64,000 nt of DNA, taken from Stegostoma tigrinum (taxonomy: Eukaryota). The stretch is taken from contig NC_081363.1 of the NCBI RefSeq assembly GCF_030684315.1, forward strand, positions 23,376,116 through 23,440,115. Direction: 5' to 3'. Of the stretch, positions 4,426-63,881 are shown piece by piece. A program made the translations under genes and the position numbers. Below the pieces are notes generated by a model that had not been told where the DNA came from, made no database searches, and worked only from the letters and a program-made list of their open reading frames with translations. Each line of letters opens with the position of its first letter. Positions within the stretch are counted from its first letter, which is position 1.

Positions 4426-4528
4426 AGTTCTAAGGAACGGTTACTGAACCTGAAGCATTAACTCTGATTTTCTCTTTGCAGATACTACCAGACCTGCTGA
4501 GCTTTTCCAGTAACTTCTATTTTTGTTA
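4426..4528 (+). mobile_element. Short Penelope-like terminal element (family B) with decayed hammerhead motif
   Basis: AGTT-CTAAGGA-ACGGTTACTGAACCT-GAAGCATT-AACT...CAGATACTACCAGACCTGCTGAGCTTTTCCAG; perfect 14-bp TSD AGGATAAAAGAGAT at 4412-4425 and 4529-4542. Confidence 0.8.
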
Positions 4529-5939
4529 AGGATAAAAGAGATCCTGATTTTTGTTTTGTTTGCTCAGGGCAAGAAAAGGGAGACTTTCCACAGACAATTA
4601 AAACCAGGCCAGCTGTCATGGGAGAGAAAGGGGGTGGTTTGAAGATGCAAAGATCAAAGCTGAAAGAAAATCATCCACATGCTGTACCATTAAGGTCTTG
4701 TTTTGGATGGAAGAATCTGCATTAAAAATTACAGCCCTTTTTATTGATATAGTTTATCTCAAAACTTAAAATGGGCTGATTTCATCTAAGAAAGTCAATT
4801 CGACACAAAACTTCACTGTTAAGCCTGTTCTTGCTTAAAAAGATTCAGGTTCCCAAAACCTGCAGTACAAAATAATGTTGTAAATATTTTCTAGCAGTTT
4901 TAGGTTGTTTCAGTTTATTTGAAGCACATTGTTGTAATACCACCAACACCATCCACTTATCCCCAAAATGTTGTGTAAGGACTTCAATAACTTTGGAATG
5001 ACATTGTGATAATTTCACCAAGCTGTGCACCACTGACTATAAAAAAAACACTAGTTGGGAGAATTAGATAAATCTACACCAGACTATACTAGTCTCTGAA
5101 AGACTGAGATAAGCATATGGACATGAACACATGAAATAATTATGTTAGTCCTTCCATAATGAAATCAAAATATCAGAGCCTACTATATTTATGTTAAGCA
5201 TATACAGCAGTGTTTAGTAATATTGTGTCATAAATAATATGATTTATAAATATAAGACTGAAGAATGTTCTTAACTTTGCCATCATCTCAACCAGTCTGT
5301 CTTGAACTCAAACACAGAGTGCCATCAAACCATACGTTCAAAGAGCTCATTTCCTTTTGTCCCCCTTTTGGTTCTGAAAATGGCTTATTGGTCATTGTAG
5401 ATTAGTTGATCAATGTTTCCTGATGACTAACCTCATGTTGAATGAGTCTATTTAATAGTCTCTTTCATTCCTTTCAATCAATATTACTTGTCACTTTATG
5501 GCCACAACTTAAGGAGAAAAGATGTAATTCCCCATTTGTTGCGTTGCTTTACTGCGATTACCTGAATGATTTGCGTAAAACACATCAACATTTGGTTCTG
5601 TGTTATCATAGATTGAAACACAAAAACTTTGCTTTCCCTGAAATGTCTTTACTTGTAGTTTTATACAAATATGAATGTTAATAGGAATTGTTTTCTGGTA
5701 TACATTGAACTGAAATGGAAATGTAAGCTTTGAGATTAAAAGAAGACATTTGTGATATGACACACATAGCTGAATTTGTGAGCACTCATGAGAAAATAAT
5801 GAATTCAAGCTCATGAATTCCCTGCAATAATGATAAAAAGGCAGACCAAGGGTGTATAATTTCATAGAATATACTCTCAATGCAATTCCTTTGTTCAAAA
5901 TGTGGACAGAGAGAGAAAGTAGGAAACCTCAGGCAAATT

Positions 5940-6890
5940 AACTTAATGACTTCTTAGGGAAAATGTTAAAAACTATTAGTGAAAAGATCTAAGATAATTA
6001 GGCAAAATCAACAACATTTAATGAAGGGGAAATCACGTCTAAACAAGTTACTGGAGTTTTTGAGCAAGTAACCCATGCTGCAGATAAAGGAGACGGAGTG
6101 GATGTGCTGCACTTGGATATCCAAAAGGCATTTGATAAGGTGCTTATCAAAATGTTGGTACAGTAAAATCCCACAGCACAGTGGGAATGTATTGAACAGA
6201 AGTTTGGCTAGCTATTAACTAATACAAAATGGAGATTAGGCATAAATGAGTCATTTTGTGGTCGAATGGTGCACTGTGATGATTCGTGCTGGTCTTTAAC
6301 TCTTTCAATTTATACATATTTCTTGGATGAAGACACTGAAGGAATGGTTGCTAAATTTGCTGAAGACACAAAGATATGTAGAACGATGAGTTTTGAAAAT
6401 GATTAAAGTCCGATATAAATGGCTATAGATACGTTGAATTAATAGGCAAAGATTCTAGCAAATAGGGTATAATGAATTAGTGTCCAATTGTTCCATTTTG
6501 CAACAAGAATAAGAATAAACTAAATAATGACTGATTGTAGAGGTATGCAAAGCAGAGAGATCTGAATGTTCTCATGCATAAATTACAAAAAGACGCATAC
6601 AGCCAGTAGCCAAAAACATGAGAATGTTAACATTTACTACAAATGGAATTCAGTACCCAAGTTATGTTGGTGAGACCATTCCTGAGAACTTGGCACTTTT
6701 TCCTCAAATTTAGTGAAAATAAAGTTTTTATTATTTTTAAGTCAGAGGTAGATAGATTCTTGATGAGCAGGAAGTGAAAGCTTATTGGAGGTAGGCAGAA
6801 ATGTGGAATAAGCAGATCAGATCTTATTGAATGGTGGGGCAGACTCACAGGGCTGAGTCAGTTACTTCTCCTAATTTGTGTGATTCCATG
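5940..6890 (+). mobile_element. Old, decayed CR1 LINE (RT to 3' UTR)
   Basis: Remnants of DFQKAFDKV (GATATCCAAAAGGCATTTGATAAGGTG) and KFADDTK (AAATTTGCTGAAGACACAAAG); CR1-like 3' UTR. Confidence 0.8.
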
Positions 6891-9005
6891 ATGTTCATAT
6901 ATAAATCAGTCCTACAACTTTCAAATTTCATCTATGCTGTTTTACAAGGCCAGTTTCGCTATTTGTGTTATGATTGATAATTTTCTCTTGGCTTCTAAGA
7001 AGCTCCGCATTCTGATCACTGTCTGGTGAGTTTTGTTTAAAAGCATACTTAGGTAGACCTACAGCTAAATCTCCTCCCCCTGAATATGGAAACATGTGGA
7101 GTATAGGTCCTATCTAGACATTTTAAGAATCAAACCATGAAGTCTACAGCATATTAAGAGAAGTTGGACAATCTAGTGTATAAACATTAATGAGCAGCTA
7201 GCTCAGGGGTACAAAAATGACAGTGCCTGCAAGTACACACTCAGAAACAAATCTTGGGGAGAAATAGCAAGATAATCAGTAAGAAACATTCAGAATCAAT
7301 ACTGCACAATACTATTTTTAAAATGTGGACCCTTCCAGTCTTCTGTCTGGACTCTTTCTGCAGGTACAAGAGTGTATGGCAGTCTCAAATGCAATGCAGT
7401 GTAATTTTAAGTACATAACAAGCAAGGTCTGCAATATAACCTATTCATTGCCAGTTGCACTGTGCGCTCTGCAGCTCAAAGTCTCAGGTAAGACATCAGT
7501 AAAATATACAGAGATCCAGTTGTTTTGTGATGATTAGCACTATTTCAATATTCTGCTGCTACAATGTCAACATTGTCAGCAGTAAATTTGTTAAATTTGT
7601 CTTTTGAAATGTAGGGATGTTTCTTTGAGTGCTCAGCATGCTTGTTGATTGGAATATTATGGGATTACATTGTTTGAAATAAGCAGAAAATGGATTGTGC
7701 CCACCTCTCCAATTCCTGAGCAACACCTCATACCATCATCATCATAAATGTCCAGTCAGGGAATTGGCCACTGGAAGATCAGTAAATGTTCTTTCATACA
7801 ATATCTAAGGCAACAGGATATTATAATGAACAATATAGGGTTTGTGATGCCAGACCCACCTTTTCATATTCAGTGAAATATGTTCGTAAGCAAAATAACA
7901 GCTATGTACTCCTACCTCCTTTGTCATTGTATGCTCCAGCTTAAAATAATTCAGCTCTGCTGCTACATTACAGCAGCAGATGCAGCCAATACATAAGGAT
8001 ATATGGAAATGAACTCTAGAAAATGATTATGCAGTCTAGCTAATCAATTGAGAATTTTATACTCCTGTATATTTCTGTCTTATTTTCTGACCTGAATTTT
8101 TCTTCTTTCTAATTTCAATTCTTCAAAAAAAATCTGATTATAATAAAATTATTTTGCATGTAATATATGTCAAACACTTATCACATTATATCAATGTTTC
8201 CTCTCAACCTGTTATATTTCTTGCAACACAGATCCATCATCTTTTTCTTTAAATCAATAAATATCATTTCTCTGCTATTTTCACATGTTCCTCAGCACTT
8301 GTATTATCTGTCAAAGAGCTGCAAGTCCAGATTGTTTCAAATTAAGCTAATTGATGCATCTAGAATGAAGAACAAGTTCTTGTTTCATTAGATATAAGGT
8401 TACAATTGCTATTCTCTGCACTGACAATCCCTTGAGAACTAAAATTGGCCCAAAGCTCATTGCAAAGTCTTTTTCTTCCAAATTCTGCTGCTATGGCATT
8501 ATGCTTCTTTCCCACATCCAGTATGACGGCTGGATTGCAACAGAAATTTCATACATCTTTTAAATGCTTGTATCATATCTCCTGTCTTTAACCTATATTA
8601 CTCAAAAAATATTTTTTTCAGTTCTCAAAGCCTATCCTCGGAATTCTGGATAAGTGCCCAGGAATTATCAGAGCCAGTCTGAGCCAAACTGAAAATAAAA
8701 ATGTGCCTTGATCATGATCAAGGCCATGGTGCTAAAAATTGATCACGACTCTTTTTTGGCCATTGAGGTCACAGTTCACAGCCTACTTACACTTGTTACC
8801 TTTGAGGCAGACATCAAACCAATTTGTCACTACCATTCACTGTGTCATTGGATCAAGCAGGGCCTGTGCAGCACTGATAGCTTATGATTTAGCCAGCCAG
8901 CTCCATGTGGAGATGCCCCTCTCTCACCCCAACCCAACCAACAGAGGTGGATTGCCCTTCATTGGTGGATTCCCTGTTATTGAAATGGCTTGTGTCTGTG
9001 AGCCA

Positions 9006-9600
9006 ATGGATGACAGTAAAGGGGTTTTACATTCATGCATGAGGCATTGGAAGACATATTGGTGGAGTTGGAGGAAAGAGATTTCTTTTGTTGGCGATAA
9101 TACAGTGTGGACCTGGAGAAGCGCAAGAGGCCAGGCAGCACCAGAGGAGGAAGAAACTTGACGTTTCAAGTCGGGACCCTTCTCCAGAAATAGGAAGAGG
9201 GAAGGGAGCTGGGAAAAAATAGAGAGAGGAGGGGTGGGGCAGGGGAAGGTGTAGGTGGGATAGTGATAGTGATTGTTGGCGGTATGGCAGGGCAGAGTGA
9301 GATCAGGAAGCCATCAAGGATTACCCTCCACAGAGAATGGAGATGGGAGGCCAGGCCAACAATGCAAACAACCTGGCTCTGACAATATTTCAGTAATTCC
9401 ACAGGAAGATTGATTCCTTTTTACCATGAGTGGTCAAGGTCAGTGAATTCATTGCTGTTTGGCATTTTCTGTATCACTCAAACTCAGTGCAACAGAATCA
9501 CTTGCATTCTGCTGTTTCTTTTGTTGAATAAGGAAACACACAATCGATCAGGGCAGAGCCAATAGAGGACAAGGACACCCGCATTCTTTGACCATGCTCA
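9006..9600 (+). pseudogene. Fossil PIF/Harbinger Myb/SANT-like accessory gene (two exons), split by a Penelope-like insertion at about 9096-9299
   Basis: FMHEALEDILVELEERDFF (from 9032), then after the insertion IRKPSRITLHREW...NANNLA...RK...VVK|GTCAGT (donor 9439), then a KETHNR-like second exon; resembles the Harbinger Myb_DNA-bind_5 pattern; frameshifted. Confidence 0.55.
9096..9299 (-). mobile_element. Penelope-like element terminus (family C) with adjacent purine-rich flank
   Basis: Homologous to the arms at 12655, 29003 and 60272; minus strand CTGGAGA-A-GGGTCCCGACTT-GAAACGTC. Confidence 0.7.
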
Positions 9601-9757
9601 CATCATGGGACTGTCTAGCGCTTGCGGCTTCCACCATTAAAGACATCACTGGGGGTGACAGTTTGTTTCTCCCTTATGCCCCTTCTCAAATCTCAGCATA
9701 TCCCCAATATGCTAACGCACATGGTGAACTCGCTATGGAAGATGTGATTATGGATTT

Positions 9758-10239
9758 TAAGAACATAAAATGTGGAGGCAGAAGAACGCCATTTAGCCCA
9801 GCCAGATGCTCTGCCATTCAATGAGATCATGGTTGATTGGGTAATTTTCAACTCCACTTTCCTGCCTTTTCCCGATAACACTTGCTTCCCTTACTGATTA
9901 AAAGTCTGTCCATCTCAGCAGTGAATATACTTAACAACCAAACTTCTCCCTCTCGGGTAAATAGTTCCACTGATTTACTGCCCTCTGAGAAAAGAAATTC
10001 CCCTTCATCTCTGTCTTAAATGTGCAGCCCCTTATTCTAAGACTGTACGCTTGGCCCTAGAATTTTCCAAAAGCGGGAACCCCTTTCTGCATCTACCCTG
10101 GCAAGTCCCCTGATAATCTTGCACATTTCAAAGAGATGGTTATCATTCTTCTGAACTGCAATGATTAGAGGACGAATCTACTCAACATCTCCGCAAAAAC
10201 ACATTCCTGCCATACCTGGGATCAACCTAGTGATCTTTC
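9758..10239 (-). mobile_element. CR1 LINE 3' end
   Basis: Reverse-complement CR1 3' UTR (CATTCAATGAGATCATGGTTGAT) and C-terminal ORF2 remnants (AAGAAATTCCCCTTCATCTC). Confidence 0.8.
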
Positions 10240-10329
10240 TCTAGACTGTAAAAACCGAAAGAACGGCATATGCTGTAAATCAGGTCAGGCAGGTCTGGCA
10301 GCATCTGTCAAGGAAAAAAACAAGTTAAC

Positions 10330-11325
10330 TGGGACCACTGTTGTTTGTGATATATGTAAATGATATGGAGGAAGGTGTAGGCGGTCTGATCAGCAAGTTT
10401 ACTGATGACACTAAGATTGGTGGAGTAGCTGATAGTGAAGGGGACTGTCAGAGATTACAGCAGAATATAGATCGACTGGAGAGTTGGGCAGATAAATGGC
10501 AGATGGAGCTCAATCCGGGCAAATGCGAGGTGATGCATTTTGGAAGATCAAATTCAAGGGCGAACTATACAGTAAATGGAAAAGTCCTAGGGAAAATTGA
10601 TGAACAGAGAGATCTGGGTGTTCAGGTCCATTGTTCCCTGAAGGTGACAACGCAGGTCAATAGGGTGGTCAAAAAGGCACATGGCGTGCTTTCCTTCATT
10701 GGATGGGGCATTGAGTACAAGAGTTGGCAGGTCATGTTGCAGTTGTATAGGACTTTGGTTTGGCCACATTTGGAGTACTGTGTACAGTTCTGGTCGCCAC
10801 ATTACCAAGAGGATGTGGATGCTTTGGAGAGGGTGCAGAGGAGGTTCGCCAGGATGTTGCCTGGTATGGAGGGTGCTAGCTATGAAGAAATGTTGAGTAG
10901 ATTAGGATTATTTTCATTAGGAAGACAGAGATTGAGGGGGGACCTGATTGAGGTCTACAAAATCATGAGGGGTATAGACAGAGTGGATAGCAAAAAGCTT
11001 TTTCCCAGAGTGGGGGACTCAATTACTAGGGGTCATGAGTTCAAAGTGAGAGGAGGAAGGTTTAAGGGAGATATGCGTGGAAAATTCTTTACACAGAGGG
11101 TGGTGGGCGCCTGGAACACGTTGCCAGCGGAGGTGGTAGACGCAGACACGTTAGCGTCTTTTGAGATATATTTGGACAGGTACATGAATGGGCAGGGAGC
11201 GAATGGACACAGGCCATTAGAAAATGGATGACAGGTTAGACAGAGGATCTTGATCGGCACAGGCTTGGGGGGGCCGAAGGGCCTGTTCCTGTGCCGTAGG
11301 TTTCTTTGTTCTTTGTTCTTTGTTT
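10330..11325 (+). mobile_element. Young 5'-truncated CR1 LINE with (GTTCTTT)n tail
   Basis: Uninterrupted ORF2 C-terminus plus 3' UTR ending TTTCTTTGTTCTTTGTTCTTTG. Confidence 0.95.
10341..11231 (+). pseudogene. CR1 ORF2 C-terminal 296 aa (part of RT domain and C-terminus), open but 5'-truncated
   Basis: FVIYVND...SKFTDDTK (FADD variant), YRTLVWPHLEYCVQFWSP, FFTQRVVGAWN; lacks endonuclease and N-terminal RT motifs. Confidence 0.9.
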
Positions 11326-11477
11326 CAGGTCAGAGAAAGATGCTGCGTGGCCTGCTGTGTTCATCCAGCTCCACACTCTGTTACAATGTTTCGGATCCAG
11401 TGTTTTTGCCTTGACAGATACTGCCAGACCTGCTGAGATTTTCCAGCAACTTTGTTCTTGTTTTTCTAGACTGTATC

Positions 11478-12469: not shown

Positions 12470-13495
12470 ATGCCATTCACACTATTCCAAATGTGGTCTG
12501 ACTGGTCCTTATATAGTTTAACCATGATTTCCCTATTTTTATACTCCATTTCCTCTGAAATAACGGTCAACATTTTATTGTCACCTCAAATACGTACTTT
12601 CCTTTTAATTCCTTTCTCGTAATTATGGTTCTCATGTCATGTATGTTAGTTTGTTGTAATACAGTGTAGAGTGAGAGGAACACAGCAGGCCAGGCAGCAT
12701 CAGAGGCACAGGGAAGTTGGTATTTCTGGTCAGGAACCTTTTTCAGAAATGAAGAAGGGTCCCAACACAAAATATCAACTTTCCTGCTCTTCTGATGCTG
12801 CCTGGTCTGCTGTGTTCCTCAAGCTCCACACTGTGTTATCTCTGTCTCCAGCACCTTCAGTTCTTACTACCACTGTTAGCTTGTCCTCATGCATTCACAA
12901 GAACTCCCGAATCCCTCAGTATATTTCAAATATCATTCTTCATTTATACAATATTCCACCATTCTATTCATTCTATCAGTGCCATAACCTCACATTTTGT
13001 CACATTACAGACCTTACACAAAATTTTTGCCGACTCTCATAACCATATATATTTGTCTGCAGACTCTTTGTGTCATCCTTACCACTTGACTGGCTACCTA
13101 TATTTGAATCACTCGCAAACTAGACAATGGTACATTCACTTGCCTCATTCAAGTTATTTGTATATGTCATAATTAAATGCATCCCCAGCACTGATTCCTG
13201 TGGCAGTCCATTCACTACAGGTGGCTATCCTGAATATGATGCCCTTATCCCAACTTTCTGACTTATATTAATTAAACAGCCTTCCATCCGTTCTGAATTA
13301 ATACCTCTACCACCATGGGGACTGATCTTATTAATTAGCCAACCAATACACCTTCCGATCAAAAGCCTTCTGAAAATCCACATATGTTATATTCACTGTT
13401 TCCCCCTTATCTATGCTGATCAATAATTCATCAAAGAATTCTAATAAATTTATCAGACACAATTTGTCCTTCATGAAATCACGCTAACAATGCAA
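12470..13495 (-). mobile_element. Old CR1 LINE RT fragment, interrupted by a palindromic element at 12655-12873
   Basis: Reverse-complement remnants CCCAGCACTGATTCCTG (PQGSVLG-like) and AAAGCCTTCTGAAAATCC (DFQKAF). Confidence 0.75.
12655..12873. mobile_element. Palindromic Penelope-like element (family C)
   Basis: Arms GAGGAACACAGCAGGCCAGGCAGCATCAGA / TCTGATGCTGCCTGGTCTGCTGTGTTCCTC meet at TTTCAGAAATGAAGAAGGGTC; probable 11-bp TSD TGTTAG(T/C)TTGT at 12644-12654 and 12874-12884. Confidence 0.8.
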
Positions 13496-24590: not shown

Positions 24591-24726
24591 AAAAGCAGTG
24601 TTTGCTTATGTTACCAACCTAATAAACTCTGCAGCCGTAACAGTTTTTTTTACACAGAAGGACAGCATGCAGACCATTTGAATCTGTGATGTCTCTGCGA
24701 GACCAAACCAAAACCAAATCCAGTGC

Positions 24727-24927
24727 TAACAAAGTGTGGGGCTGGATGAACACAGCAGGCCGAGCAGCATTCTAGGAGCACAAAAGCTGACGTTTCGGGC
24801 CTAGACCCTTGGCCTGAATTGTCAGCTTTTGCTCTCCTAGGATGTTGCTTGGCCTGCTGTGTTCATCCAGCCCCACACTTTGTTATCTTGGATTCTCTAG
24901 CATCTGCAGTTCCCATTATCTCTGATC
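24727..24927. mobile_element. Palindromic Penelope-like element (family A)
   Basis: Inverted arms TAACAAAGTGTGGGGCTGGATGAACACAGCAGGCC / GGCCTGCTGTGTTCATCCAGCCCCACACTTTGTTA; minus strand GGG-TCTAGG-CCC-GAAACGTC; perfect 14-bp TSD CCAAATCCAGTGCT at 24714-24727 and 24928-24941. Confidence 0.9.
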
Positions 24928-29002: not shown

Positions 29003-29120
29003 AGATATAATAGGAATTGTCGATGCTGGAGTCGGAGATAACACAATGTGGAGCTGGAGGAGCACAGCAGGTCAGGCAGCATCAGAGGAGCAGTAAGTTT
29101 ATGTTTCGGGTCAGGTCCTG
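29003..29120 (-). mobile_element. Single-arm family-C Penelope-like element
   Basis: GATGCTGGAGTCGGAGATAACACAATGTGGAGCTGGAGGAGCACAGCAGG...TTTCGGGTCAGG; stops within the helix II region. Confidence 0.8.
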
Positions 29121-29268: not shown

Positions 29269-31620
29269 ATAGAACATAGAACATAGAACATAGAACATAG
29301 AACATAGAACAGTACAGCACAGAACAGGCCCTCAGCCCACAATGTTGTGCCGACCATTGATCCTCATGTATGCACCCTCAAATTTCTGTGACCATATGCA
29401 TGTCCAGCAGTCTCTTAAATGACCCCAATGACCTTGCTTCCACAACTGCTGCTGGAAATGCATTCCATGCTCTCACAACTCTCTGTGAGAAGAACCCGCC
29501 TCTGACATCCCCTCTATACTTTCCTCCAACCAGCTTAAAACTATGACCCCTCGTGCTAGCCATTTCTGCCCTGGGAAATAGTCTCTGGCTATCAACTCTA
29601 TCTATGCCTCTCATTATATTGTATACCTCAATTAGGTCCCCTCTCCTCCTCCTTTTTTCCAATGAAAAGAGACCGAGCTCAGTCAACCTCTCTTCATAAG
29701 ATAAGCCCTCCAGTCCAGGCAGCATCCTGGTAAACCTCCTCTGAACCCTCTCCAAAGCATCCACACCTTTCCTATAATGGGGCGACCAGAACTGGACGCA
29801 GTACACCAAGTGCGGTCTAACCAAAGTTTTATAGAGCTGCAACAAGATCTCACAACTCTTAAACTCAATCCCCCTGTTAATGAAAGCCAAAACACCATAT
29901 GCTTTCTTAACAACCCTGTCCACTTGGGTGGCTATTTTGAGGGATCTATGTATCTGCACACCAAGATCCCTCTGTTCCTCCACCTGCCAAGAATCCTATC
30001 CTTAATCCTGTACTCAGCTTTCAAATTCGACCTTCCAAAATGCATCACCTCGCCTTTATCCAGGTTGAACTCCATCTGCCACCTCTCAGCCCATCTCTGC
30101 ATCCTGTCAATGTCCCACTGCAGCCTACAACAGCCCTCTCTACAGTCAACGACACCTCCGACCTTTGTGTCGTCTGCAAACTTGCTGACCCATCCTTCAA
30201 TCCCCTCATCCAAGTCATTAATAAAAATTACAAACAGTAGAGGCCCAAGGACAGAGTCCTGTGGAACCCCACTCACAACTGACTTCCAGGCAGAATATTT
30301 TCCTTCTACTACCACTCGCTGTCTTCTGTTGGCCAGCCAATTCTGTATCCAGGCAGCTAAGTTCCCCTGTATCCCATTCCTCCTGACCTTCTGAATGAGC
30401 CTACCATGGGGAACCTTATCAAATGCCTTACTGAAGTCCATATACACCACATCCACAGCTCGACCCTCATCAACTTTTCTAGTCACATCCTCAAAAAACT
30501 CGATAAGGTTTGTGAGGCATGACCTACCCCTCACAAAGCCATGTTGACTGTATTTGATCAAGCCATGCTCTTCCAGATGGTCATAAATCCTATCCCTCAG
30601 AATCCTTTCTAACACCTTGCAGACGACAGACGTGAGACTTACTGGTCTGTAATTGCTGGGGATTTCACTATTTCCTTTCTTGAAGTGAGGAATTACATTT
30701 GCCTCTCTCCAGTCCTCAGGTACGACTCCAGTGGAGAGCGAGGATGCAAAGATCTTTGCAAGTGGCGAAGCAATTGCTTTTCTCGCTTCCCAAAGCAGCT
30801 GAGGACAAATCTGGTCCGGGCCTGGCAACTTGTCAATCTTAACGTTTGACAAAATTTTCAGCACATCAGCTTCCTCTATCTCTATCCATTCCAGCATGCA
30901 CAACTGCTCTTCAAAGGTTTCATTCACTACAAAGTTCATTTCTTTCGTAAAGACAGAAGCAAAAACTCATTTAGGGCTTCCCCTACCTCCTCAGACTCCA
31001 CACACAAGTTCCCTATGCTATCCCTGATCGGCCCTACTCTTTCTTTGACCATTCTCTTATTCAAAAATGCCTTTGTGTTCTCCCTGATTCGTTCTGCCAA
31101 GCCTTTCTCGTGCCCCCTCCTGGCTCTCCTCAGACCATTTTTGAGCTCCTTCCTTGCCTGCGTGTAATCCTCTCTAGCTAAATTTGACCCAAGCTTCCTC
31201 CACCTTATGTAAGCTACCTTCTTCCTTTTCACAAGAAGCTCCACCGCTCTTGTCATCCAAGGTTCCTTTATCTTACCCCTTCTTGCCTGTCTCAGGGAGA
31301 CAAATTTACTCATCACTCGCAACAACTGTTCTTAAACAGTCTCCACATGTCTATAGTTCCCTTACCATGGAACAATTGCTCCCAGTCCATGCTTCCTAAC
31401 TCATGTCTAATCGCGTCATAGTTTCCTCTTCCCCAATTAAATATCCTCCCATTTTCCCTAATCCTCTCCTTCTCCATAGCTATGTAGAATGTGAGGCAGT
31501 TATGGTCACTATCACCAAAATGCTCTCCCACCACAAGATCTGATACCTGCCCCGGCTCGTTTCCGAGCACCAAGTCTAGAATGGCCTCTCCCCTCGTCGG
31601 CCTGTCAACGTACTGCGTCA
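29269..31620 (-). mobile_element. Young 2.35-kb CR1 LINE: end of APE endonuclease, full RT and 3' UTR, (GTTCTAT)n tail
   Basis: ORFs 31313-31660 (TQYVDRPTRGEAILDLVL...GDSDH), 30936-31325, 29932-30939 (DFSKAFDKVPH, GVPQDSVLGP, KFADDTK) and 29378-29983, joined by frameshifts; ATAGAAC repeats at 29269-29310. Confidence 0.97.
29932..30939 (-). pseudogene. CR1 ORF2 reverse-transcriptase core (335-aa open segment)
   Basis: RT motifs NYRPVSLTS, QHGF, DFSKAFD, GVPQDSVLGP, FADD; frameshifted at both ends. Confidence 0.92.
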
Positions 31621-31879
31621 TGTGAAAATGGTCCAATAAGAAAATATAATGTACATACATTACTGAGGAGGTAAATACGTAATGAATAACACATTAAACT
31701 TTGATCGTCTAATATGGAATCTGTATAAGTATTCGGAGTCGGTTAAAGAACGGTTCCATCTTCAAACTGTTTTAAAATAACCTACAGGTTTTTAATGTTT
31801 GTGCACTGCTTCTTGAATGCATTCACCCTTGATCTTTTCCTAGCCATTGTCTTAAATCCACACCATAGTCTCTGTTTTC

Positions 31880-47221: not shown

Positions 47222-47351
47222 TCATCAGAAGGGTCTAGGCCCGAAACGTCAGCTTTTGAGCTCCTGAGATGCTGCTTGGCCTGCTGTGTTCATCCAGATA
47301 CACGCTTTGTTATCTTGGATTCTCCAGCATCTGCAGTTCCCATTATCTCTG
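47222..47351 (+). mobile_element. Family-A Penelope-like element with a micro-remnant of the inverted arm
   Basis: TCATCAGA (reverse complement of TCTGATGA) fused to AGGG-TCTAGG-CCC-GAAACGTC-AGC and the full tail ...CCCATTATCTCTG. Confidence 0.88.
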
Positions 47352-47618: not shown

Positions 47619-47775
47619 TAAAAGCAAAATGCTATAGATGCTGAAAATTTAGTCCATCTTATTTTTGGCAGAACAGTTCTGAAGAAGTCATATTGGACTT
47701 GAAACATTAACTCTGTTTCTCTTTTCACAGATGCTGCCAGAGACTGCTGAGTTTCTCTGGCATTCTCTGTGTTTG
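47619..47775 (+). mobile_element. Family-B Penelope-like element with a near-intact hammerhead core
   Basis: AGTT-CTGAAGA(47679-47685)-AGTC-ATATTG-GACT-T-GAAAC-ATT-AACT; short inverted-arm remnant at 47619-47650. Confidence 0.75.
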
Positions 47776-47954
47776 TAACAGATACTCGAAATGGTCCGAG
47801 AGATAAATTTGGGTTTACTTGAACAGATATATATGAATATTCAACTGGCTGTTGCTATCAGAGACGTTTTTCTAAAACAATTTAATATCCCTGTTTGCAC
47901 AAAGTCAGATATCCTGATCATTTCCTACCAAAATGACATAATTTTCAGTTCAGA

Positions 47955-48128: not shown

Positions 48129-48209
48129 TATATTCCTACTATTCTAAGGTCATAGATAACGCAGATTGAAATAACAATTGCTTGAGTATGAACAACTAAC
48201 TAAGAAAAT

Positions 48210-48418
48210 CAGAGATAGTGGGAACTGCAGATGCTGGAGAATCCGAGATAACAAAGTGTGGAGCTGGATGAACACAGCAGGCCAAGCAGCATCTTAAGAG
48301 CACGAAAGCTGACATTTCGGGCCTAGACCCTTCATGATGAAGGGTCTAGGCCCGAAACGTCAGCTTTTGTGCTCCTAAGTTGCTGCTTGGCCTGCTGTGT
48401 TCATCCAGCTCCACACTT
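48210..48418. mobile_element. Palindromic Penelope-like element (family A), best preserved
   Basis: Arms of about 80 bp centred on CCCTTCATGATGAAGGG; plus strand ATGATGA-A-GGG-TCTAGG-CCC-GAAACGTC (48334-48361); 11-bp TSD TAAGAAAATCA at 48201-48211 and 48422-48432. Confidence 0.92.
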
Positions 48419-52089: not shown

Positions 52090-52308
52090 GAAAGCTCAGC
52101 AGGTCTGGCAGCATCTGTGAAGAAAAAAATCAGAGTTAATGTTTCAGATCTGGTGACCATTCCTCAGAACTTTCCCAGTTCAGAGGAAAGGTCACTAGAC
52201 CTGAAATGTTTACTCTGATTTTTTTCTTTACAGATGCTGCCAGATCTGCTGAGCTTTTCCAGCAACTCCTGTTTTGATTTACAGTATGTGCAGTTCTCTT
52301 AGTTTTTA
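52090..52308. mobile_element. Palindromic Penelope-like element (family B) with two back-to-back hammerhead motifs
   Basis: Minus 52167-52137: CTGAGGA-AT-GGTC-ACCA-GATC-T-GAAACATT; plus 52181-52210: CAGAGGA-A-AGGTC-ACTA-GACCT-GAAATGTT; CAACCAGG at 52078-52085 and 52317-52324 (possible TSD). Confidence 0.88.
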
Positions 52309-52934: not shown

Positions 52935-54480
52935 TTAGCTGGCCAGCAAATACTTCCCAACCCTGGAGAATGAGGTGGTGAGGTGCCTTTTTGAACTGTT
53001 GTAGTCCATGTGGTGTAGAGATATCAAAATTGCTGCTAAGAATGTGATCCAGCAACAGTGAAGGAACAGCAATGTAGCTCCAAATAAGGATAGGACATGG
53101 CTCACGATGGAGCTGGCAGGTAATGCCATTCCATACTACTGCTATTCTGGTTGATCTTGGTGCCAGAGGTTTAGATGGTGCTGTCAATGGAGCATTACTG
53201 TGTTCCTGCAGTGCATTATGTAGATGTTACACACTTCTGTTACTGTGTATCAGTTGTCGAGGGAATGAATGTTCAATATGGATGAGGGGGTTGAAGGATG
53301 GGTCAGCAAGTTTGCAGACGACACAAAGGTCGGAGGTGTCGTTGACAGTATAGAGGGCAGTTGTAGGCTGCAGCGGGACATTGACAGGATGCAGAGATGG
53401 GCTGAGATTTGGCAGATGGAGTTCAACCTGGATAAATGCGAGGTGATGCATTTTGGAAGGTCGAATTTGAAAGCTGAGTACAGGATTAGGGATAGGATTC
53501 TTGGCAGTGTGGAGGAACAGAGGGATCTTGGCGTGTAGATACATAGATCCCTTAAAATGGCCACCCAAGTGGACAGGGTTGTTAAGAAAGCATATGGTGT
53601 TTTGGCTTTCATTAACAGGGGGATTGAGTTTAAGAGTCGTGAGATCTTGTTGCAGCTCTATAAAACTTTGGTTAGACCGCACTCGGAATACTGCGTCCAG
53701 TTCTGGTCGCCCTATTATAGGAAAGATGTGGATGCTTTGGAGAGGGTTCAGAGGAGGTTTACCAGGATGCTGCCTGGACTGGAGGGCTTATCTTATGAAG
53801 AGAGGTTGACTGAGCTCGGACTTTTTTCATTGGAGAAAAGGAGGAGAGGGGACCTAATTGAGGTATACAAGCTAATGAGAGGCATAGATAGAGTTGATAG
53901 CCAGAGACTATTTCCCAGGGCAGAAATGGCTAACACGACGGGTCATAGTTTTAAGCTGGTTGGAGGAAAGTATAGAGGGGATGTCAGAGGCGGGTTCTTC
54001 TCACAGAGAGTTGTGAGAACATGGAATGCGTTGCCAGCAGCAGTTGTGGAAGCAAGGTCATTGGGGTCATTTAAGAGACTGCTGGACATGCATATGGTCA
54101 CAGAAATTTGAGGGTGCATACATGAGGATCAATGGTCGGCACAACATTGTGGGCTGAAGGGCTTGTTCTGTGCTGTACTGTTCTATGTTCTATGTTCTAA
54201 TATGCTGGGTAGGAAGCAGAATGTTTTGAGTTGGATACAGGCAAGCCCCTTGAACGTTGTTTATGCAGCATGCATACATGCGATTAGGGAGTACCCCAAC
54301 GCATGCTTCACTTTTAATTTGAAATGGTGTCCAGGCTTTGAGATTACTCATTGCAGAATTCCCAGCATCTGACCTGCTCTTGTAGCCATAATACTTATAT
54401 GGTTGATCCAGTTTTTGTGTGTAGTCTATGAGAATCCCAGGACATCGATAACAAGGTATTCAGTTGTGATATTAAAAACT
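52935..54480 (-). mobile_element. LINE family 2 3' region, split by a young CR1 at 53281-54198
   Basis: GGCCAGCAAATACTTCCC...TTGAACTGTTGTAGTCCATGTGGTGTAG; continues after the CR1 (CAGAATTCCCAGCATCTGACCTGCTCTTGTAGCCA). Confidence 0.7.
53281..54198 (+). mobile_element. Young 5'-truncated CR1, near-identical to the 3' 0.9 kb of the copy at 29269
   Basis: GWVSKFADDTK ... SFKRLLDMHMVTEI*; (GTTCTAT)n tail; TSD AATATG at 53275-53280 and 54199-54204. Confidence 0.97.
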
Positions 54481-57305: not shown

Positions 57306-57440
57306 TGTGATGAAGGGTTACTGGAATTGAAATCTTAACTCTGTTTTTCTCTCTACAGTTGCTGCCAGACCTGTTGAGCTTTTCCAGCACTTTCTGTGTT
57401 TGTGTCAGAATTCCAACATCTGAAATTCATTGTTTCTATT
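57306..57440 (+). mobile_element. Single-arm family-B Penelope-like element
   Basis: GTGATGAAGGGTTACTGGAATTGAAATCTTAACTCTG...GCTGCCAGACCTGTTGAGCTTTCCAGCA. Confidence 0.75.
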
Positions 57441-57897
57441 ACAGGGCCACCTAACAGTTCACTATCTCTGTGCTGCTGCCTGAGATAATGGTTCCGAAAG
57501 AGTTAACTTTTATGTTATGTTAGTTCTGACCATTTGACTGATGTCTCACACAATCTATGGGTGGAGACAAGGAATTCAACTCTATCTTGCTGAGGGGAAA
57601 GCGTCTGCTTCTTAAGGTTCCATTAATTATGCTCCCACAAATTCAGTTAAACTTAATGGTGTCATGAAAAGAAATTCTTTTTGTTATCTCAGAACAACTA
57701 CTCTAAAGTGATATAACCTCTTCCACTAAGCATGAGATAGGCCTAAGAGAATGCAAAGACATATCAGCGGCCACAAACCATTTCAACAACCCACAAACAG
57801 TTCAACGCACAGGTAAAGGTGATAAGTACCCTCTGGTTATAGGAGTGGTCATCTGGGAAATCACCACATGCCAACCTTTTCAGAGTACCCCAAAACT

Positions 57898-57993
57898 GAA
57901 AATATCGAAAAAAACTGCAATGCTCATCAGGTCTGCAATAACTGTGGAGAGAAAGCAGAGTTAATGTTTTGGGTCCAGTGACTCTTCTTCAGA
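57898..57993 (-). mobile_element. Single-arm family-B Penelope-like element
   Basis: Minus strand TT-CTGAAGA-A-GAGTC-ACTG-GACCC-AAAACATT-AACT. Confidence 0.72.
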
Positions 57994-58927
57994 ATGTAGC
58001 CCTGCTTAGTTTTTACAGCAATTTCTGTTGTTGTCACCCCAAAACCAATCTCACTGCCCTACATTATTCAAAAAAGTATTCAAATAACCTTTGCTTTCAA
58101 TACGTACATAATTTCTCCTTAACTGATTCAACTGCATCTGCCTCAACTGTCCCGCGCGTTAAAGCAAGTATCTTGTGAAGAAAGCTTTCTTCACCTATGT
58201 CTGCTTCTCGTCATGCTAATTTTTATTTGATGGTTCCACATCACCAACAAAAGAAATAAGCTTTCTTCTTCAAACAGCTAAGTTCCTTCATAATTAAAAA
58301 AAAGAAATTACTAGATCTCATTTTAACTTTCTTGGTTGCCATGGAAATAATTTCCACATTTCTCATCATTGTTATAATTTTCCATTGTAACTACCTCCTC
58401 TCTGCCCCTCTTTTTAACCCAGTGATTGGGCTCCATTATTATCATTGTATCCACCACATTCTCTCCTCCCCCCCGCCAATAACATCATCATTTGGACCTC
58501 TGAACCACCATTTAATTGGTATATTTGGTGAAGAAACACCAAGATCAATGCAGTATGCTCCCTAATAGTCCCCAGTCCCATGAGATGAACTTCAGGTCTC
58601 CTCCACAACAGTTTTGCTGAAGCCTTCTTTGCCTGTTTGAAAGTCTAGTGATCTATTCCTGTAAACAATAGAAGAAATTTGAAGGATTTTCAAATAACTT
58701 GTTCTCCTGTCTTGAAAACGTTTAGGTCGTGAGAGCTAAAATTCTGGTCGTTATTTTCCTTTCAATTTAAAATTTTCCAAAAGCCAGCTATTAGCATTTC
58801 ATGCTACTTACATACTCTTTCCAATCTCAGGACACTCCTAACCCTAACCCTCTTTCCCGCCATCGTTTTTTTTTAAATATGGTTCATGACGCAAGGGGAC
58901 ACTTCAGTTCTTCATTCAAGCATTCCT

Positions 58928-59475
58928 TTAGACTCATAGAACTGTACAGCATGGAAAAAAACACTTTGGCCCAAGTCGTCCATGCTGATCAGATATCCTA
59001 AATAAATCTAGTCCCATTTGCCAGCATTTGGCCCTTCTCCCTCTAAAGCCTTCCTATTCATATACTCATCCAGATGCCTTTTAAATGTTGATAAGATACC
59101 AGCCTCCACCACTTTGTCTGGCAGCTCATTCTATATATGCATCACACTTTGCGTGAAAAAGTTGCCTCTTAGGTCTCTTTTATCTCTTTCCCCCCTTATC
59201 TTAAACCAATGCCCTCCAGTTTTGGAAACCCCTAGCCCAGAAAAGACCGTGTCTATTCATCCTATCCATGCCCCTCATGATTTTATAAACCTCCATAAGG
59301 TCAGCCCTCAGTGTCCAAAACTCCAGAGAAAATAGCCCCAGCCTGTTCAGCCACTTCCTATAGCCTAAGCCCTCCAACCCTGGGAACATCCTTGCAAATC
59401 TTTTCTGAGCTTTTTCAGGTTTTCTACAGCAGGGAAACCAGAATTGCGTGCAGTATTCCAAAAGTAGCCTAACTA
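58928..59475 (-). mobile_element. CR1 LINE 3' fragment
   Basis: EYCTQFW...LEGLGY...LGLFSLE...DLMEVYKIMRGMDR; reverse-complement tail AGACTCATAGAAC. Confidence 0.9.
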
Positions 59476-59494
59476 TATATAATTAATTCATTTA

Positions 59495-60065
59495 CAATTC
59501 TTTCATTCATTCACAGAATATGGACAACACTGGCTAGGCTAACATTTATTGCATATCTCTGACTGTCTTTGAGAGTGTAGAGGTGAGTAACTTTCTTTAG
59601 TTTATGTACAGGGACGAACCACAGTGCTTTTAGAAAGGATGTTCCATTATTCTGTCTCAGTAATAGTGAAGGAATGGTGATATATTCCTTAAAACCTTAA
59701 GATACAGGTGCAGAATTAGCAAAAATCAAGGTCAGGCTAACCAGCCTAAAGTTTCCTTTCTTCTGCCTTCCTCTGTCCTGAAACAGGGGTGTTGCAATAA
59801 TCATTTTCCAGTCCTCTGAGACCCTCCTTGACTACAGTGATTCCTGAAAGATCACCACCGATGCCTCCACAATCTTCTCAGATATCTCCTTCTGAACTCT
59901 GAGGTGTAGACTATCCAGTCAGGGTGATTTGTCCACCTTCAGACTTCTCAATTTTCCTAGCACCTTATCCTTGGTGATGCCTTTGCACATACCTCTGTCA
60001 TCTGACTGTCTAAAAGTTTTGATATGATAATAGTGTCTTCACCATGAAGCCTGATGCAAAAGATG
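59495..60065 (-). mobile_element. LINE family 2 tail (59495-59690) followed by an internal CR1 fragment (about 59725-60065)
   Basis: TTCATTCATTCAC...CATTTATTGC; TTCCAGTCCTCTG (PEDW) and GGTGATTTGTCCACCTTCAG (LKVDKSP). Confidence 0.7.
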
Positions 60066-60271
60066 TAGAGAGATAGCTGATTGTTTTCATAACATGGGTA
60101 AAAGTTGGATATTGAAGAGGAACAGGATGGCAATTACAGGGATGTAATTGTGGAGAAAGAAACTGACAACAATGAAGAAAAGCATGCTGAATGATTGCAG
60201 TTGGAAGACTGAGTACCTGCAGTTAGCAAATGGTATTTTGGGATAACAAAGAAGTAGAGCATTAACTGAAA

Positions 60272-60394
60272 GGAGATAGCAAGAACCTCAGATGCTGGAG
60301 TCAGAGACAACACAGTGTGGAGCTGGAGGAACACAGCAGGTCACGCAGCATCAGGGGAGCAGAAAAGTTGACGTTTCAGATCAGGACTCTTCTT
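60272..60394 (-). mobile_element. Single-arm family-C Penelope-like element
   Basis: CAGATGCTGGAGTCAGAGACAACACAGTGTGGAGCTGGAGGAACACAGCAGG...; minus strand AAGAAGAGTCCTGATCTGAAACGTC. Confidence 0.82.
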
Positions 60395-61538
60395 TAACTC
60401 TATACTGTGTGGTCATTAAGTGAAAGGATATGCAAAGTGGATAAAGTGAATATTGGCATGGGTTCTGGAAGTAGTAAGTGTTGGAAGCTTGAACAATAAA
60501 ATAGAAGGAGATCACCAACAACAAGGTTGGAGGGGAAATGAATGTTCGGTTTTAACGATTGGTGTGGGAGAAGATAATTTAAATGAGGACATTGTCTCCG
60601 AAAGAGAGCTGGAACAGTACACAGAGATCTTTTATGAACAATGTGGAGCAAGTAGAGTGCCAATCTGGACTGAGACTGCCAGTGTTTATGTATTGAAATT
60701 ATTACTGAAATATATTTTGGATAAATAATGATCTCTCTGGTCTGATGAATTTCCAGAAGTCTTTTTCTTCAATTCAGAACTTCAAAAACATACAAAGTTA
60801 AAACTTTTTGTAGCAGCATATTTAAACAATGTCCAATTTTGCAAATCATTGCCGTCATTTTAAAGTTCTTTCAACTATTTATAACATTCTTCCTTTTTTC
60901 CCACTGTGACATGTAGGAAGCAATGTCATATATAACTGCAGCATACATTACAAACTACTGCACTTGTTTTTGCTTGTCAGCATTAACTTTTGCTATTTGC
61001 TTTACTGGAACTTTGTGCTTTTGAAGTTATTGTTCAGCTTTTGTGAGCTTTCTAAGCTGCTGTGTGCTTCGAATTGAACGACAGCAGAAAGTAACCCTGT
61101 ACAACTCTATTAGCTTTTCAAATAATAGCTTTCTGAGTGACATCTTTCATCGACCCACCTTGTAGGTTGGTGATTTTGTATGGCATAAATGGGTTAGATA
61201 AAAAAAATGCAAAAATTTTGATGAATGTCTGTTCTAAAATTGAGTTCATTTCATTTACGTTTAATTTTGACATTTCCACTCATAGCAGATATGTCAGATT
61301 AAAACTATGAAGGGCTTTCAACTCTTTGGATTAATTTAAGGGTTTTGTGAGTATTGATTGAAGTGAATAATTTGTTTCTTATACCTGAAATATAAACAGC
61401 ACATTTCCAACCTGTTTAATCACACATCTACCCAAAGTATTTAGCTCTTTGATTGAAGATTGCTGCAAAATAAGTGAGTATTCATTGGTCGTGTTTTCTT
61501 ATATCACCCTGAAATATATTGACTTGGAGAGACTTATT

Positions 61539-61800
61539 AAAATTAATGCTGGCACTTATAATGTTTACACAGGGTGTGAAATGCAGACATGACACATATG
61601 GCATTAAAATTAGAACTGGTATTTATAATGTTTACGCAGGGTCTCAAATATAGACACTTCATATCGCAGTGGAAAATCATGCTGCATTTATAACGTTTGC
61701 ACAGGGCCTGAATTGCAGACATTACAAATGTTGCTGTTAAAATCATTGCTGGCATTTATAGCATTTAGTCGAGCTTTGTAAAACAGATATTGCCATGTTG
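61539..61800 (+). repeat. Tandem repeat, about 67-bp unit x4 (diverged)
   Basis: Units start at 61539, 61606, 61673 and 61739: AAAAT..TGCTGGCA.TTATAATGTTTACACAGGG....AA.GCAGACA. Confidence 0.85.
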
Positions 61801-62459
61801 GTTGGCATTCAGGTTCAGTCTGGCACTCTGCACAGATGTCGTCACTGAACTAAAGAAACAACAAAAATATGTTGTTAAAGTTAAGATTTAGGCAGGCACT
61901 GTGGTATAGATACTGCAGGTAATAGTACTCAGATGGGGTTGGCTCTAATGACACTCTTACAGGCTCAGAAATATTGGCACTACAATACTTAACATATCAA
62001 TATTTAGGAGGATTCCGATGATAGAGCCACCAGTTCAAACTCATTCAGTTGACAAAGGAAGACCTTCATCCTATTAATCAGCTTGGATTGTAAGCTGCAT
62101 TTGGAGATGAAGAGAAGAAAGAAGAGCATGCTGGATCATTGAGCCAACTAGTTGTGACTGCAGTATCGTCTTTAATGTTCATACCAAACATGAAACCAAA
62201 CCCTCATTAATTCTCTGGCTTGAACATGAGCTAAAGCATGCCTTGTTCACTTGCCATTAGCAACATAGATCGGCTGTGCAGGGAAATAGGAAATGCTGAA
62301 ATTGCCAGTCAAACCTGGAAGAGAAAAGTGGATATTGATACAAAGCCAAGAAGTTTGTCATGGTTATCAGCAATCCTCAGTCAACTCAACACAGATGGCT
62401 TTCAAGATAAGGATCCAAGCAGCAAGCCAAGGGTAGCTTCTGATACGAGCCAAGGTGCT

Positions 62460-63003
62460 TAGCCATGGTCTCTCATCTGTTTGGGACTAATGGAGTCAGG
62501 GTCCTCTACATAAGGCTTACCACTGTTCTTTACTCTTTCTGCCCTACAGATGAATGAATTCATCCTGAAATGAGAGGGGGGCAGTTATTATGAGAGATGA
62601 AGTGGGCAGCAAGGCTGTTACTTTTATTGCAAGTGGGAGATATTCTGATTGAGTAGTAGGCAGCGCAGAGTGAATGCAGGCTGAGCACTGTGGTAATTAA
62701 GGATGGGTGGCCATGAGTGAGAGACAATGTTGCAGCCAAGTGAGATTTGGTAGGAGGTGGGGACAGTAACAGAGATAGAGTGAGGGTGAGGTATTGAATA
62801 GAAGGTGGTGGTTGTCAGAGTGGACATTGACCTTGTTCCTACAGTGCTGTTCATTCCTCTGGATGGTTGAGACTGACCTGGGTGACAAGTTCAGACCAGT
62901 TCTTGTGGGCCCTACTGCCAGTCCTGGGGTAGTGAACATGCTGCCTCAGCACCATTCTGTCCACTGAAGCCTCCAGGACCCTGCAGAATGCTAATTTTCC
63001 CAT
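62460..63003 (-). pseudogene. Fossil PIF/Harbinger Myb/SANT-like gene
   Basis: Minus strand MGKLAFCRVLEASVDRMVLRQHVHYP...SVSTIQRNEQHCRNKVN; possible second exon after CTCATTTCAG (about 62566); same pattern as 46540-47130. Confidence 0.55.
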
Positions 63004-63742
63004 TTATTCCTGGAATCGTGGAGAGCCCGTCTCGACTGAGAGTGTTTGTATATGCGCACATGCGCTTTTAAACATGGCACGATATCAAGTATACCAGTTC
63101 TTTCAAGGATATCCCAGCAGTGGCGAGTTGTTGCAGGTATGAATAGCAGTAGAAAGGGACTAGAATCAGACAAGAGGCAAATCAAAGGAGTTGGGTAGGT
63201 AGATAATGAGGTAGGTTTGGGGTGTACAAAAAAGTGCAAAATTGGTGGTGAGAAACAAGGCCTCTCCAGGAAACTCTCCAGGAAACCAAATAAAACGACT
63301 CTTAGCCAATAAATTGCAAGTTCTAGGTCTTTGCCTCAATCCAAAGATAGTGTGTAACATCTGGATAATGGATGGATTTAATGAAACACGAACACTAATC
63401 CCTTCTTAAATAATGGCATATATATCTTACACTCATCTTATGCCTATTTGCTCATTGGGGAAGAAAATAATTTTCGAAGATAGCAATTCAGGCTCATTTG
63501 CACTTTTGCTTTGGAATTAAAATAATAGACAAAAGCACTCAGGCTCTGAGAAGTTAGATCTTCATTTAAATGGTATTATGGATGACATTAGCTTGTTCTA
63601 GGAATAAAAAATAGATTCATTCAGAACCAACATCTGCTTTATACCCTGCCTGCTACTCTTGTATTTAAAGTGGAATGAATTTCAAATAGTCAGTCCTGCC
63701 CAAAAGTAGTTTAGAATTAAAATCAGGCCTATGAGTACTCTA

Positions 63743-63881
63743 AAATAAAACAAAGACCTACAGATGCTGGCAGTATGAAACAAACAAAGTCAGAAATTGC
63801 TAGAGAAACTCAGCAGGTGTGGAAGCAGTTGTGGCAAGAAAACAGAGTTAACAGTTTGAGTCCAGTAAACTGATTTCAGAA
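63743..63881 (-). mobile_element. Single-arm family-B Penelope-like element
   Basis: CAGATGCTGG...CAGAAATTGCTAGAGAAACTCAGCAGG...CAGAGTTAACAGTTTGAGTCCAGT...TTTCAGAA. Confidence 0.75.

What the first reader, a model, noticed from the sequence alone, without database searches (positions are those of the whole stretch)
4426..63881. Single-arm copies repeatedly begin at the 5' edge of the ribozyme
Seen: independent copies start within a few bases of the helix I/CUGANGA boundary (4426 AGTTCTAAGGA; 47675 AGTTCTGAAGA; 57308 GTGATGA; minus-strand starts at 57993, 60394 and 63881) and run about 90-140 nt to a similar 3' tail. Only the 9096 copy extends further upstream. Random 5' truncation would not cluster like this. 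Inference: either the mobile unit is a discrete short RNA (ribozyme plus tail, possibly circular like a retrozyme) or the ribozyme fold is a reverse-transcription stop or template-switch hotspot.
Basis: partly seen in the sequence, partly recalled or inferred. Interest (0 to 1): 0.7.

Follow-up and report, generated by a model that had tools for sequence, protein, structure and literature searches.

The report
Penelope stubs ending at RNA cap
These 100-140-base repeats are short copies of a known jumping-gene type (a Penelope-like retroelement) that pile up at the front edge of its small ribozyme, not at the ribozyme's cut site, likely because the copying enzyme runs off the capped start of the RNA there, which is a testable clue to how these elements replicate.

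Summary
The arms are ribozyme-plus-tail pieces of Penelope-like elements (PLEs) in a 3.2-Gb genome.

- In 1.6 Mb sampled genome-wide, 120 of 489 arms start 8 to 1 bases before the ribozyme core. That is 15-30 times the per-base stop rate further upstream, and simulation shows no alignment artefact.
- Exact counts: 6,191 starts at -4 against 54 at -10.
- The predicted cut site (+28/+30) is not the main edge.
- Short and long copies share haplotypes, so no separate short lineage is seen.
- 0 of 28 near-full-length copies start at the edge and 15 read through it, so the fold itself does not stop the enzyme.
- Young copies starting at -4 carry an excess, mostly untemplated G (28 of 40, control 8 of 28), as capped full-length L1 insertions do.

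Best reading: cDNA primed at the tail sites nearest the RNA's capped start runs off at -4. No RNA data could test this. Eight paper searches did not find it described. This scan's AI notes report the same pattern in other genomes.

The parts
4412..4425 (+). left target-site duplication (14 bp), directly abutting the arm
4426..4527 (+). solo family-B arm, -4 to +98 (short tail); ribozyme core decayed
4529..4542 (+). right target-site duplication, identical to the left one
9096..9275 (-). family-A arm, -88 to +92, ordinary 5'-truncated copy with an imperfect 11-bp TSD
47674..47776 (+). solo family-B arm, -5 to +97; no TSD found
57308..57420 (+). solo family-B arm, +1 to about +114 (blast match runs to about 57440); no TSD found
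57919..58034 (.). head-to-head double arm, family B: minus arm from -2 (57994), plus arm internally deleted (+60 to +97); 10-bp TSD
60273..60394 (-). solo family-A arm, +3 to +125 (long tail); 15-bp TSD-like match 21 bases upstream
63747..63881 (-). solo family-B arm, firm alignment +13 to +130; 63867-63881 may be a decayed 5' part
47228..47351 (+). further solo family-A arm, +5 to +129
29003..29118 (-). further solo family-A arm, +9 to +126
12657..12869 (.). head-to-head double arm, family A, one short and one long tail, joined at the ribozyme edge
24717..24926 (.). head-to-head double arm, family A, starts +6 and +12, short plus long tail
48208..48418 (.). head-to-head double arm, family A, starts +1 and +3, short plus long tail, 11-bp TSD
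52091..52275 (.). head-to-head double arm, family B, starts -4 and -5

Best explanation
The arms are short, independent insertions of the ribozyme-plus-tail part of Penelope-like elements, and their shared 5' edge at about -4 is likely the capped start of the element's RNA, where reverse transcription would run off. SHOWN: the parent elements (RT, Cys linker, GIY-YIG, unit of about 3.6 kb); two 3' end sites (about +95 and +130); 10-18-bp TSDs; the sharp edge; an excess, mostly untemplated G before -4 in the youngest families; read-through of the same site by near-full-length copies. INFERRED: (1) transcription starts at the base of helix I; (2) the endonuclease nicks both target strands, and each 3' end primes internally at one of the two tail sites; (3) on the uncut linear RNA the tail nearest the 5' end is primed, so the cDNA runs off after 100-135 bases and often copies the cap as an extra C; (4) one such cDNA gives a solo arm, two joined head-to-head give the palindrome with one long and one short tail, and trimming before joining gives the shoulder at 0 to +60; (5) long copies come from longer-than-unit templates (a circle made by ribozyme cleavage, or tandem read-through) that have no end at -4.
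For: Edge: 120 of 489 arms at -8..-1; 6,191 against 54 exact starts at -4 and -10; no pile-up in simulation. The edge is set by position, not length: 32 of 78 short-tail and 25 of 71 long-tail short solos start there. Extra G: among the first 100 of 3,543 matches with T at -6, the base at -5 is C 60 (native), G 28, T 10, A 2. The control start at +13 gives C 72, G 8, T 16, A 4; Fisher p = 0.001. In 20 fetched T-G loci every flank differs. The G lies in an untemplated gap in 9 of 10 inverted junctions and outside the TSD in 3 of the 5 solos with a clear TSD. DNA contigs of run X10 also show a G inserted before -4 and -2 (table 5c). An extra G marks capped full-length L1 insertions (PMC11702581, passage). 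Family B: G 12 of 24 non-native bases (p = 0.007 against an assumed 25%). An initiator-like motif sits at -4 or -5 in all 8 reference sequences. Twin use of the tail sites: 86 of 99 pairs have one long and one short tail (49 expected); TSDs in 42 of 55 young pairs and 21 of 69 young solos, against 10 of 275 and 4 of 345 shuffled. Read-through: 0 of 28 near-full-length copies start at the edge and 15 pass it (p = 0.011 against 37 of 123). In vitro, a lizard PLE nicks and extends both strands, initiates internally at two sites, needs RNA downstream of them and uses uncleaved RNA (PMC11167929, main text). The TSS lies in the pLTR of Penelope and Chlamys-3 (PMC8557442, section 10).
Against: No RNA 5' end was observed. 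The G excess is clear only in the youngest families. In my 1.6-Mb sample G is not enriched at -5 in families A2-A5 (5 of 36) or at -6 in family B (3 of 55). The genome-wide listing for A2-A5 is confounded by fold-back A's. Many A-G rows at -4 can come from the partner arm. In 2 of 5 solos the G is part of the TSD, and 5 of 10 solos had no clear TSD. Terminal addition of C at any template end would give the same G. The initiator match is weak: such motifs occur several times per 200 bases of this pyrimidine-rich region. If the RNA starts at -4, full-length copies starting at -4 would be expected, and none of 28 does, so step 5 is an added assumption. 219 of 489 arms start inside the ribozyme or tail (0 to +70), which needs trimming or early stops.
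Confidence: 0.65

Rival explanations
1. The edge is an uncapped boundary set by the ribonucleoprotein. Either a longer RNA is trimmed 5'->3' up to the protein-bound helix I, or the protein holds the RNA just upstream of -4 as a telomerase-like template boundary that acts only near the priming site. The G would then be a terminal addition.
For: The edge coincides with the 5' strand of helix I in both families. It also explains read-through by near-full-length copies without a special start site. The lizard ribozyme is protein-assisted (PMC11167929). The G excess is weak outside the youngest families.
Against: Helix I is only 2 bp in the youngest families, where the edge is still at -4. G specificity (28 G against 2 A) matches the known cap signature. 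An initiator-like motif sits at the same offset in all references (weak).
Confidence: 0.2
2. The ribozyme fold itself stalls the RT or makes it switch template.
For: Stops inside the ribozyme and tail (0 to +60) are several times more frequent per base than upstream. Head-to-head junctions cluster there.
Against: The peak is at the far (5') side of the fold. 15 of 15 near-full-length copies that reach it pass on. A stall does not predict an extra G at -5.
Confidence: 0.06
3. The arms are a separate short mobile RNA (retrozyme-like or SINE-like, possibly circular) released by self-cleavage.
For: About 70% of arms are short (347 of 489). True tandem mini-units of about 300-480 bases exist in this genome. 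A few DNA contigs join the long tail end back to the -3..+5 start.
Against: The edge is about 30 bases from the cut site. At +28, 61 of the first 100 of 3,552 matches are fold-backs on a 4-base palindrome, and the rest are about as frequent as at the +33 control after normalising. Nearest neighbours share the short/long label no more than by chance (0.479 against 0.497), and the commonest haplotype is in 9 short and 5 long copies. Junctions and flanks all differ. The mini-units have other boundaries.
Confidence: 0.06
4. The edge is an artefact: alignments end where conservation ends because different families are compared.
Against: The peak holds within each family against its own upstream reference, including copies over 95% identical. 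TSDs abut the edge. Simulations are clean. Exact-match counts need no alignment.
Confidence: 0.02

Closest known systems
Endonuclease-positive Penelope-like elements with pLTR, inverted 5' copy and 30-40-bp tail (PMC8557442 passages and section 10; PMC3846280 passages)
   Same: RT plus C-terminal GIY-YIG, partial tandems, head-to-head inverted copies, tail on one arm only, TSDs, solo pLTRs, TSS and initiator-like motif in the pLTR.
   Different: The passages read describe 5' truncation without a sharp edge at the ribozyme or an extra G. PMC3846280 explains the inversions by self-priming on an antisense template; the strict long-plus-short pairing here fits priming from both target nicks better.
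Anole Poseidon element PAc in vitro (PMC11167929, main text)
   Same: Two internal RT start sites that define the tail; both strands nicked and extended; uncleaved RNA used; no reads ending at the ribozyme cut site.
   Different: Poseidon clade, with the ORF starting inside the ribozyme (here the first ATG of the long ORF is near +170). The main text does not map genomic 5' ends.
Minimal type I hammerheads of metazoan PLEs (PMC4209133, main text)
   Same: Same core, extra base before stem II, palindromic loop 3, mostly solitary motifs, some on opposite strands.
   Different: That paper ascribes single motifs to truncated PLEs without mapping edges. In D. virilis the 5' end of helix I is an intron end; here family A has no AG at the edge.
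Non-LTR retrozymes (10.64898/2026.07.22.740005, part 1 and passages)
   Same: PLE-derived, non-coding, hammerhead-bearing; monomers dispersed.
   Different: Defined there as tandem units. The arms here are solo or head-to-head, lack the +135 to +245 region, and form no lineage of their own.
Extra G at 5' junctions of full-length L1 insertions (PMC11702581 passages); minus-strand strong-stop DNA of LTR elements (recalled)
   Same: Run-off at a capped RNA end that leaves one extra G; twin priming from both nicks.
   Different: Here the run-off product is only 100-135 bases, is integrated as such, and the two arms overlap in sequence.

Membership tests
EN+ Penelope-like element (source of the arms) | RT followed by C-terminal GIY-YIG endonuclease upstream of the pLTR | tested here: met
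   Family A: RVT_1 E 1.4e-5 in 1 of 3 ORF pieces; GIY-YIG E 5e-4 to 0.012 in 3 of 3 other pieces, below Pfam's curated cut-off; motifs visible. Family B ORF not examined.
EN+ Penelope-like element (source of the arms) | pLTR with partial tandems and inverted 5' copies | tested here: met
   15 of 28 near-full-length copies are partial tandems; 99 short head-to-head pairs.
EN+ Penelope-like element (source of the arms) | optional 30-40-bp tail, often on one arm only | tested here: met
   3' ends bimodal at about +95 and +130; 86 of 99 pairs long plus short.
Neptune/Nematis clades | CX2-5CxxC motif in the RT-EN linker | tested here: met
   C-x4-C-x2-C linker in translated copies; definition from PMC8557442.
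Neptune clade | RT phylogeny groups with Neptune references | not tested
   No reference sequences were fetched; the Neptune label rests on the linker motif and on recall that vertebrate elements of this type are Neptune.
Minimal type I hammerhead ribozyme | CUGANGA, stem II, GAAA, palindromic loop 3, NUH, helix I | tested here: met
   Present in the references; intact core pattern in 46 of 77 short and 57 of 88 long family-A arms, 22 of 55 and 2 of 8 in family B. Helix I is 4 bp in B, 2 bp in young A. Rfam found no hammerhead in the window.
Minimal type I hammerhead ribozyme | self-cleavage (as a dimer or with protein) | not testable with these tools
   Needs an in vitro assay.
Non-LTR retrozyme | head-to-tail tandem units, each with a hammerhead | tested here: not met
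   Window arms are solo or head-to-head. Separate tandem mini-units elsewhere meet it.
Non-LTR retrozyme / SINE | self-propagating lineage distinct from the autonomous element | tested here: not met
   Nearest-neighbour label test on 56 short and 58 long young arms, p = 0.7; only 84 bases were compared.
Non-LTR retrozyme | circular monomer RNA in vivo | not testable with these tools
   Only assembled contigs were available.

The most novel reading that the evidence does not exclude
PLEs make a strong-stop-like cDNA. The ribozyme sits at the capped start of the transcript and works as a switch between two templates. The uncut linear RNA yields only 100-135-base run-off copies primed from both target nicks (most of about a million arms). 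The ribozyme-made circle yields the long, partial-tandem, propagating copies. The pLTR would then act like the R region of LTR elements, and the genome would record both the start site and the timing of cleavage.
Probability: 0.3. Interest if true: 0.75.

Novelty: new variant of a known kind. Interest (0 to 1): 0.5.

Why it matters
The PLE replication cycle is largely unresolved; the paper on the first PLE active in vitro leaves the steps after priming open. These insertions give base-level predictions: a capped start at -4, one nick per tail site, run-off on linear RNA and read-through on longer-than-unit templates. Each can be tested with CAGE and the published in vitro assay. They also explain how one element family left roughly a million ribozyme-bearing stubs (306 arms per Mb in the sample; 232,264 exact matches of one 26-base core) without a separate mini-element. 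The element type and the gross structures are already known.

Tried and rejected
Rfam found no hammerhead in the window; its 4 weak matches are hairpin or chance hits.

RNA evidence: no RNA holder listed with raw reads. Four contig sets were laid and show no RNA ends; their depth was not used.

Fixed-length ruler: rejected, because both tail classes share the edge.

Splice acceptor at the edge: rejected for family A, which has no AG there. Starts are also scarce near the upstream AG (only 9 family-A stops at -30..-9).

Microhomology as the cause of the edge: the -4 region is not self-complementary, and solos show the same peak as pairs (54 of 157 solos).

Cut-site peak: not separable from joins on the 4-base palindrome at +28. 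A small excess near +28 to +36 is not excluded.

The +5 control for the G test is confounded by an A-bearing subfamily (G 8, C 8, A 32, T 52) and was replaced by the +13 control. The pattern admitted the native bases, so it served only as a copy count.

Single-sequence folding did not return the catalytic fold, as expected for a minimal hammerhead.

A genome-wide count of ORF-continuing copies starting at -4 could not be made, so the read-through result rests on 28 loci. No tree was built.

Dropped before counting: of 544 arms called, 55 were left out (locus edge, 3' end below +80, or in the window). Base tallies from pattern searches are hand counts of the first 100 listed rows.
Full report
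Setting. The window is G000:C12:23376116-23440115 of a 3.2-Gb genome. It is rich in LINE-type RT fragments (the CR1 label is recalled). 'Shark-like' comes from recall and from earlier AI notes, not from a call. Positions below are relative to C3 of the CUGANGA core (= 0).

What the arms are. A search with the 9096 copy returned loci whose upstream sequence is the end of a GIY-YIG ORF. Long copies translate to RT, a C-x4-C-x2-C linker and GIY-YIG. Near-full-length copies give a unit of about 3.6 kb with the long ORF starting near +170. This is an endonuclease-positive PLE of Neptune/Nematis type by motif (PMC8557442); no tree was built. The arms hold a minimal type I hammerhead as in PMC4209133, with the predicted cut at +28 (family A) or +30 (family B). 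I built six references for A and two for B. The family-B ORF was not examined.

Check in the window. 23 arms were called. 12 start between -8 and +5, 9 further inside and 2 upstream. The 4426 copy is the cleanest: -4 to +98 between identical 14-bp TSDs. 57993 is a double arm, 63881 aligns firmly only from +13, and five of the six named copies belong to a different family from 9096.

Genome-wide check. I took 160 evenly spaced 10-kb loci. 544 arms were called, including the window; 489 were kept (random loci, not at an edge, 3' end at +80 or beyond). Starts: 120 at -8..-1, 219 at 0..+70, 54 at -190..-9, 96 beyond -190. Per-base stop rates at -8..-1 are 0.045 (A) and 0.081 (B), against 0.0014 and 0.0053 at -100..-31. 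Six simulations with uniform breakpoints at 7-22% divergence recovered flat histograms. Exact patterns with the same flank class give 6,191 starts at -4 and 54 at -10; exact-match retention is similar, 0.47 and 0.49.

3' side. Ends are bimodal near +95 and +130 in both families, the PLE tail. 86 of 99 short head-to-head pairs have one end of each kind (49 expected, p 1e-14). TSDs occur in 42 of 55 young pairs and 21 of 69 young solos, against 10 of 275 and 4 of 345 shuffled. These are independent target-primed insertions; junctions differ from copy to copy. The edge does not move with the tail class.

A self-cleaved unit would start at +28. That site has 3,552 matches, but 61 of the first 100 are fold-backs on a 4-base palindrome and 12 more fit partner microhomology. 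The remainder, normalised, is about 3,800 against about 3,000-3,400 at +33, 1,400 at +13 and over 13,000 at -4 (rough arithmetic on hand counts). A small cut-site contribution is not excluded. Among 56 short and 58 long young arms there is no short-only lineage (84 bases compared). For the stall option I fetched the 28 best matches to the ORF's N-terminal DNA. 13 start at +8 to +245, none at -8..-1, and 15 run on to between -32 and beyond -1,237 (p = 0.011 against 37 of 123 tail-primed young arms). So the sequence is not a stop for an enzyme that arrives from the ORF.

The extra G. DNA contigs showed a G inserted before -4 and -2. With T fixed at -6, which excludes the native base and the common partner ends, non-native bases at -5 were G 28, T 10, A 2. 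The +13 control gave G 8, T 16, A 4 (p = 0.001). With a purine at -6, G:A was 95:5 at -4 (partly partner-derived) and 33:21 at -10. In 20 of the T-G loci all flanks differ. The G is untemplated in 9 of 10 inverted junctions, outside the TSD in 3 solos and inside it in 2; 5 solos had no clear TSD. Family B shows 12 G of 24. Against this, the sample logos show no G excess for A2-A5 or at -6 in B, and one search is confounded. An Inr-like motif (A at -4; A2, A4, A5, B) or a TCT-like motif (C at -4 or -5; A0, A1, A3) sits at the edge in all references. Such motifs are common in this region, and the motif definitions are recalled.

Mechanism. Most likely the transcript starts, capped, at the base of helix I. 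Both target nicks prime internally at the two tail sites nearest that start, and each cDNA runs off after 100-135 bases. It joins the target (solo) or its twin (palindrome), often after trimming. Long copies need templates that continue upstream, a circle as proposed in PMC4209133 or tandem read-through. The lizard data offer a reason why the first tail is favoured: priming needs RNA downstream of the start sites, which the 3' pLTR lacks (PMC11167929). All of these steps are inferred from DNA.

Literature. Seen: PMC11167929 parts 1-2 of 4; PMC4209133 parts 1-2 of 4; 10.64898/2026.07.22.740005 part 1 of 5 and passages; PMC8557442 passages and section 10; PMC3846280 passages; PMC11702581 passages. 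Eight searches showed no paper describing a PLE breakpoint peak at the ribozyme's 5' edge or a cap-derived G. The library lacks most subscription papers, and no supplements were read; Fig. S2 of PMC11167929 may bear on this.

Earlier notes of this scan. AI notes on other genomes report the same edge and the same extra-G reading. I had recorded the run-off reading before and ran the G test. They are not independent support.

Verdict. A real and sharp pattern in a known element type. The structures are known; the edge, the extra G and the read-through contrast add a testable detail. Interest 0.5.

Noticed in passing
L143, L144, L146-L149, L151, L153, L156, L158, L159, L161, L162, L164, L165: Many loci that hold the +135 to +245 region jump near +245 back into the 3' UTR (-48 to -235), giving tandem mini-units of about 300-480 bases. 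L156 has three ribozymes at a 333-base period, and several junctions recur in separate loci. These look like PLE-derived retrozymes that keep the likely protein-binding region.
   Followed up: partly
G000, genome-wide: Perfect palindromes centred on the four bases just after the predicted cut site (+28): 21 such pairs among the first 100 rows. This may be microhomology joining or run-off at a cleaved RNA end.
   Followed up: partly
L180: A head-to-head junction is filled with telomere-like hexamer repeats between the two arms.
   Followed up: no
L257:1237-1245 and 1364-1369 (table 5): DNA contigs join the long tail end back to the ribozyme edge, i.e. rare head-to-tail dimers of the short unit.
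   Followed up: no
family references: In the young families the 8 bases at -3 to +4 recur at the end of the long tail, and both tail ends share a short motif, so the short unit is bracketed by similar sequence.
   Followed up: no
window 10329-11231, 29291-31693, 53227-54199: LINE RT fragments; two are 96% identical over 924 bases (29291-30212 and 53279-54199).
   Followed up: no
window 12669-12826: The weak Rfam microRNA match is only the hairpin of a PLE double arm.
   Followed up: yes
window 61536-61760: Decayed 67-bp tandem repeat, 3.4 copies.
   Followed up: no
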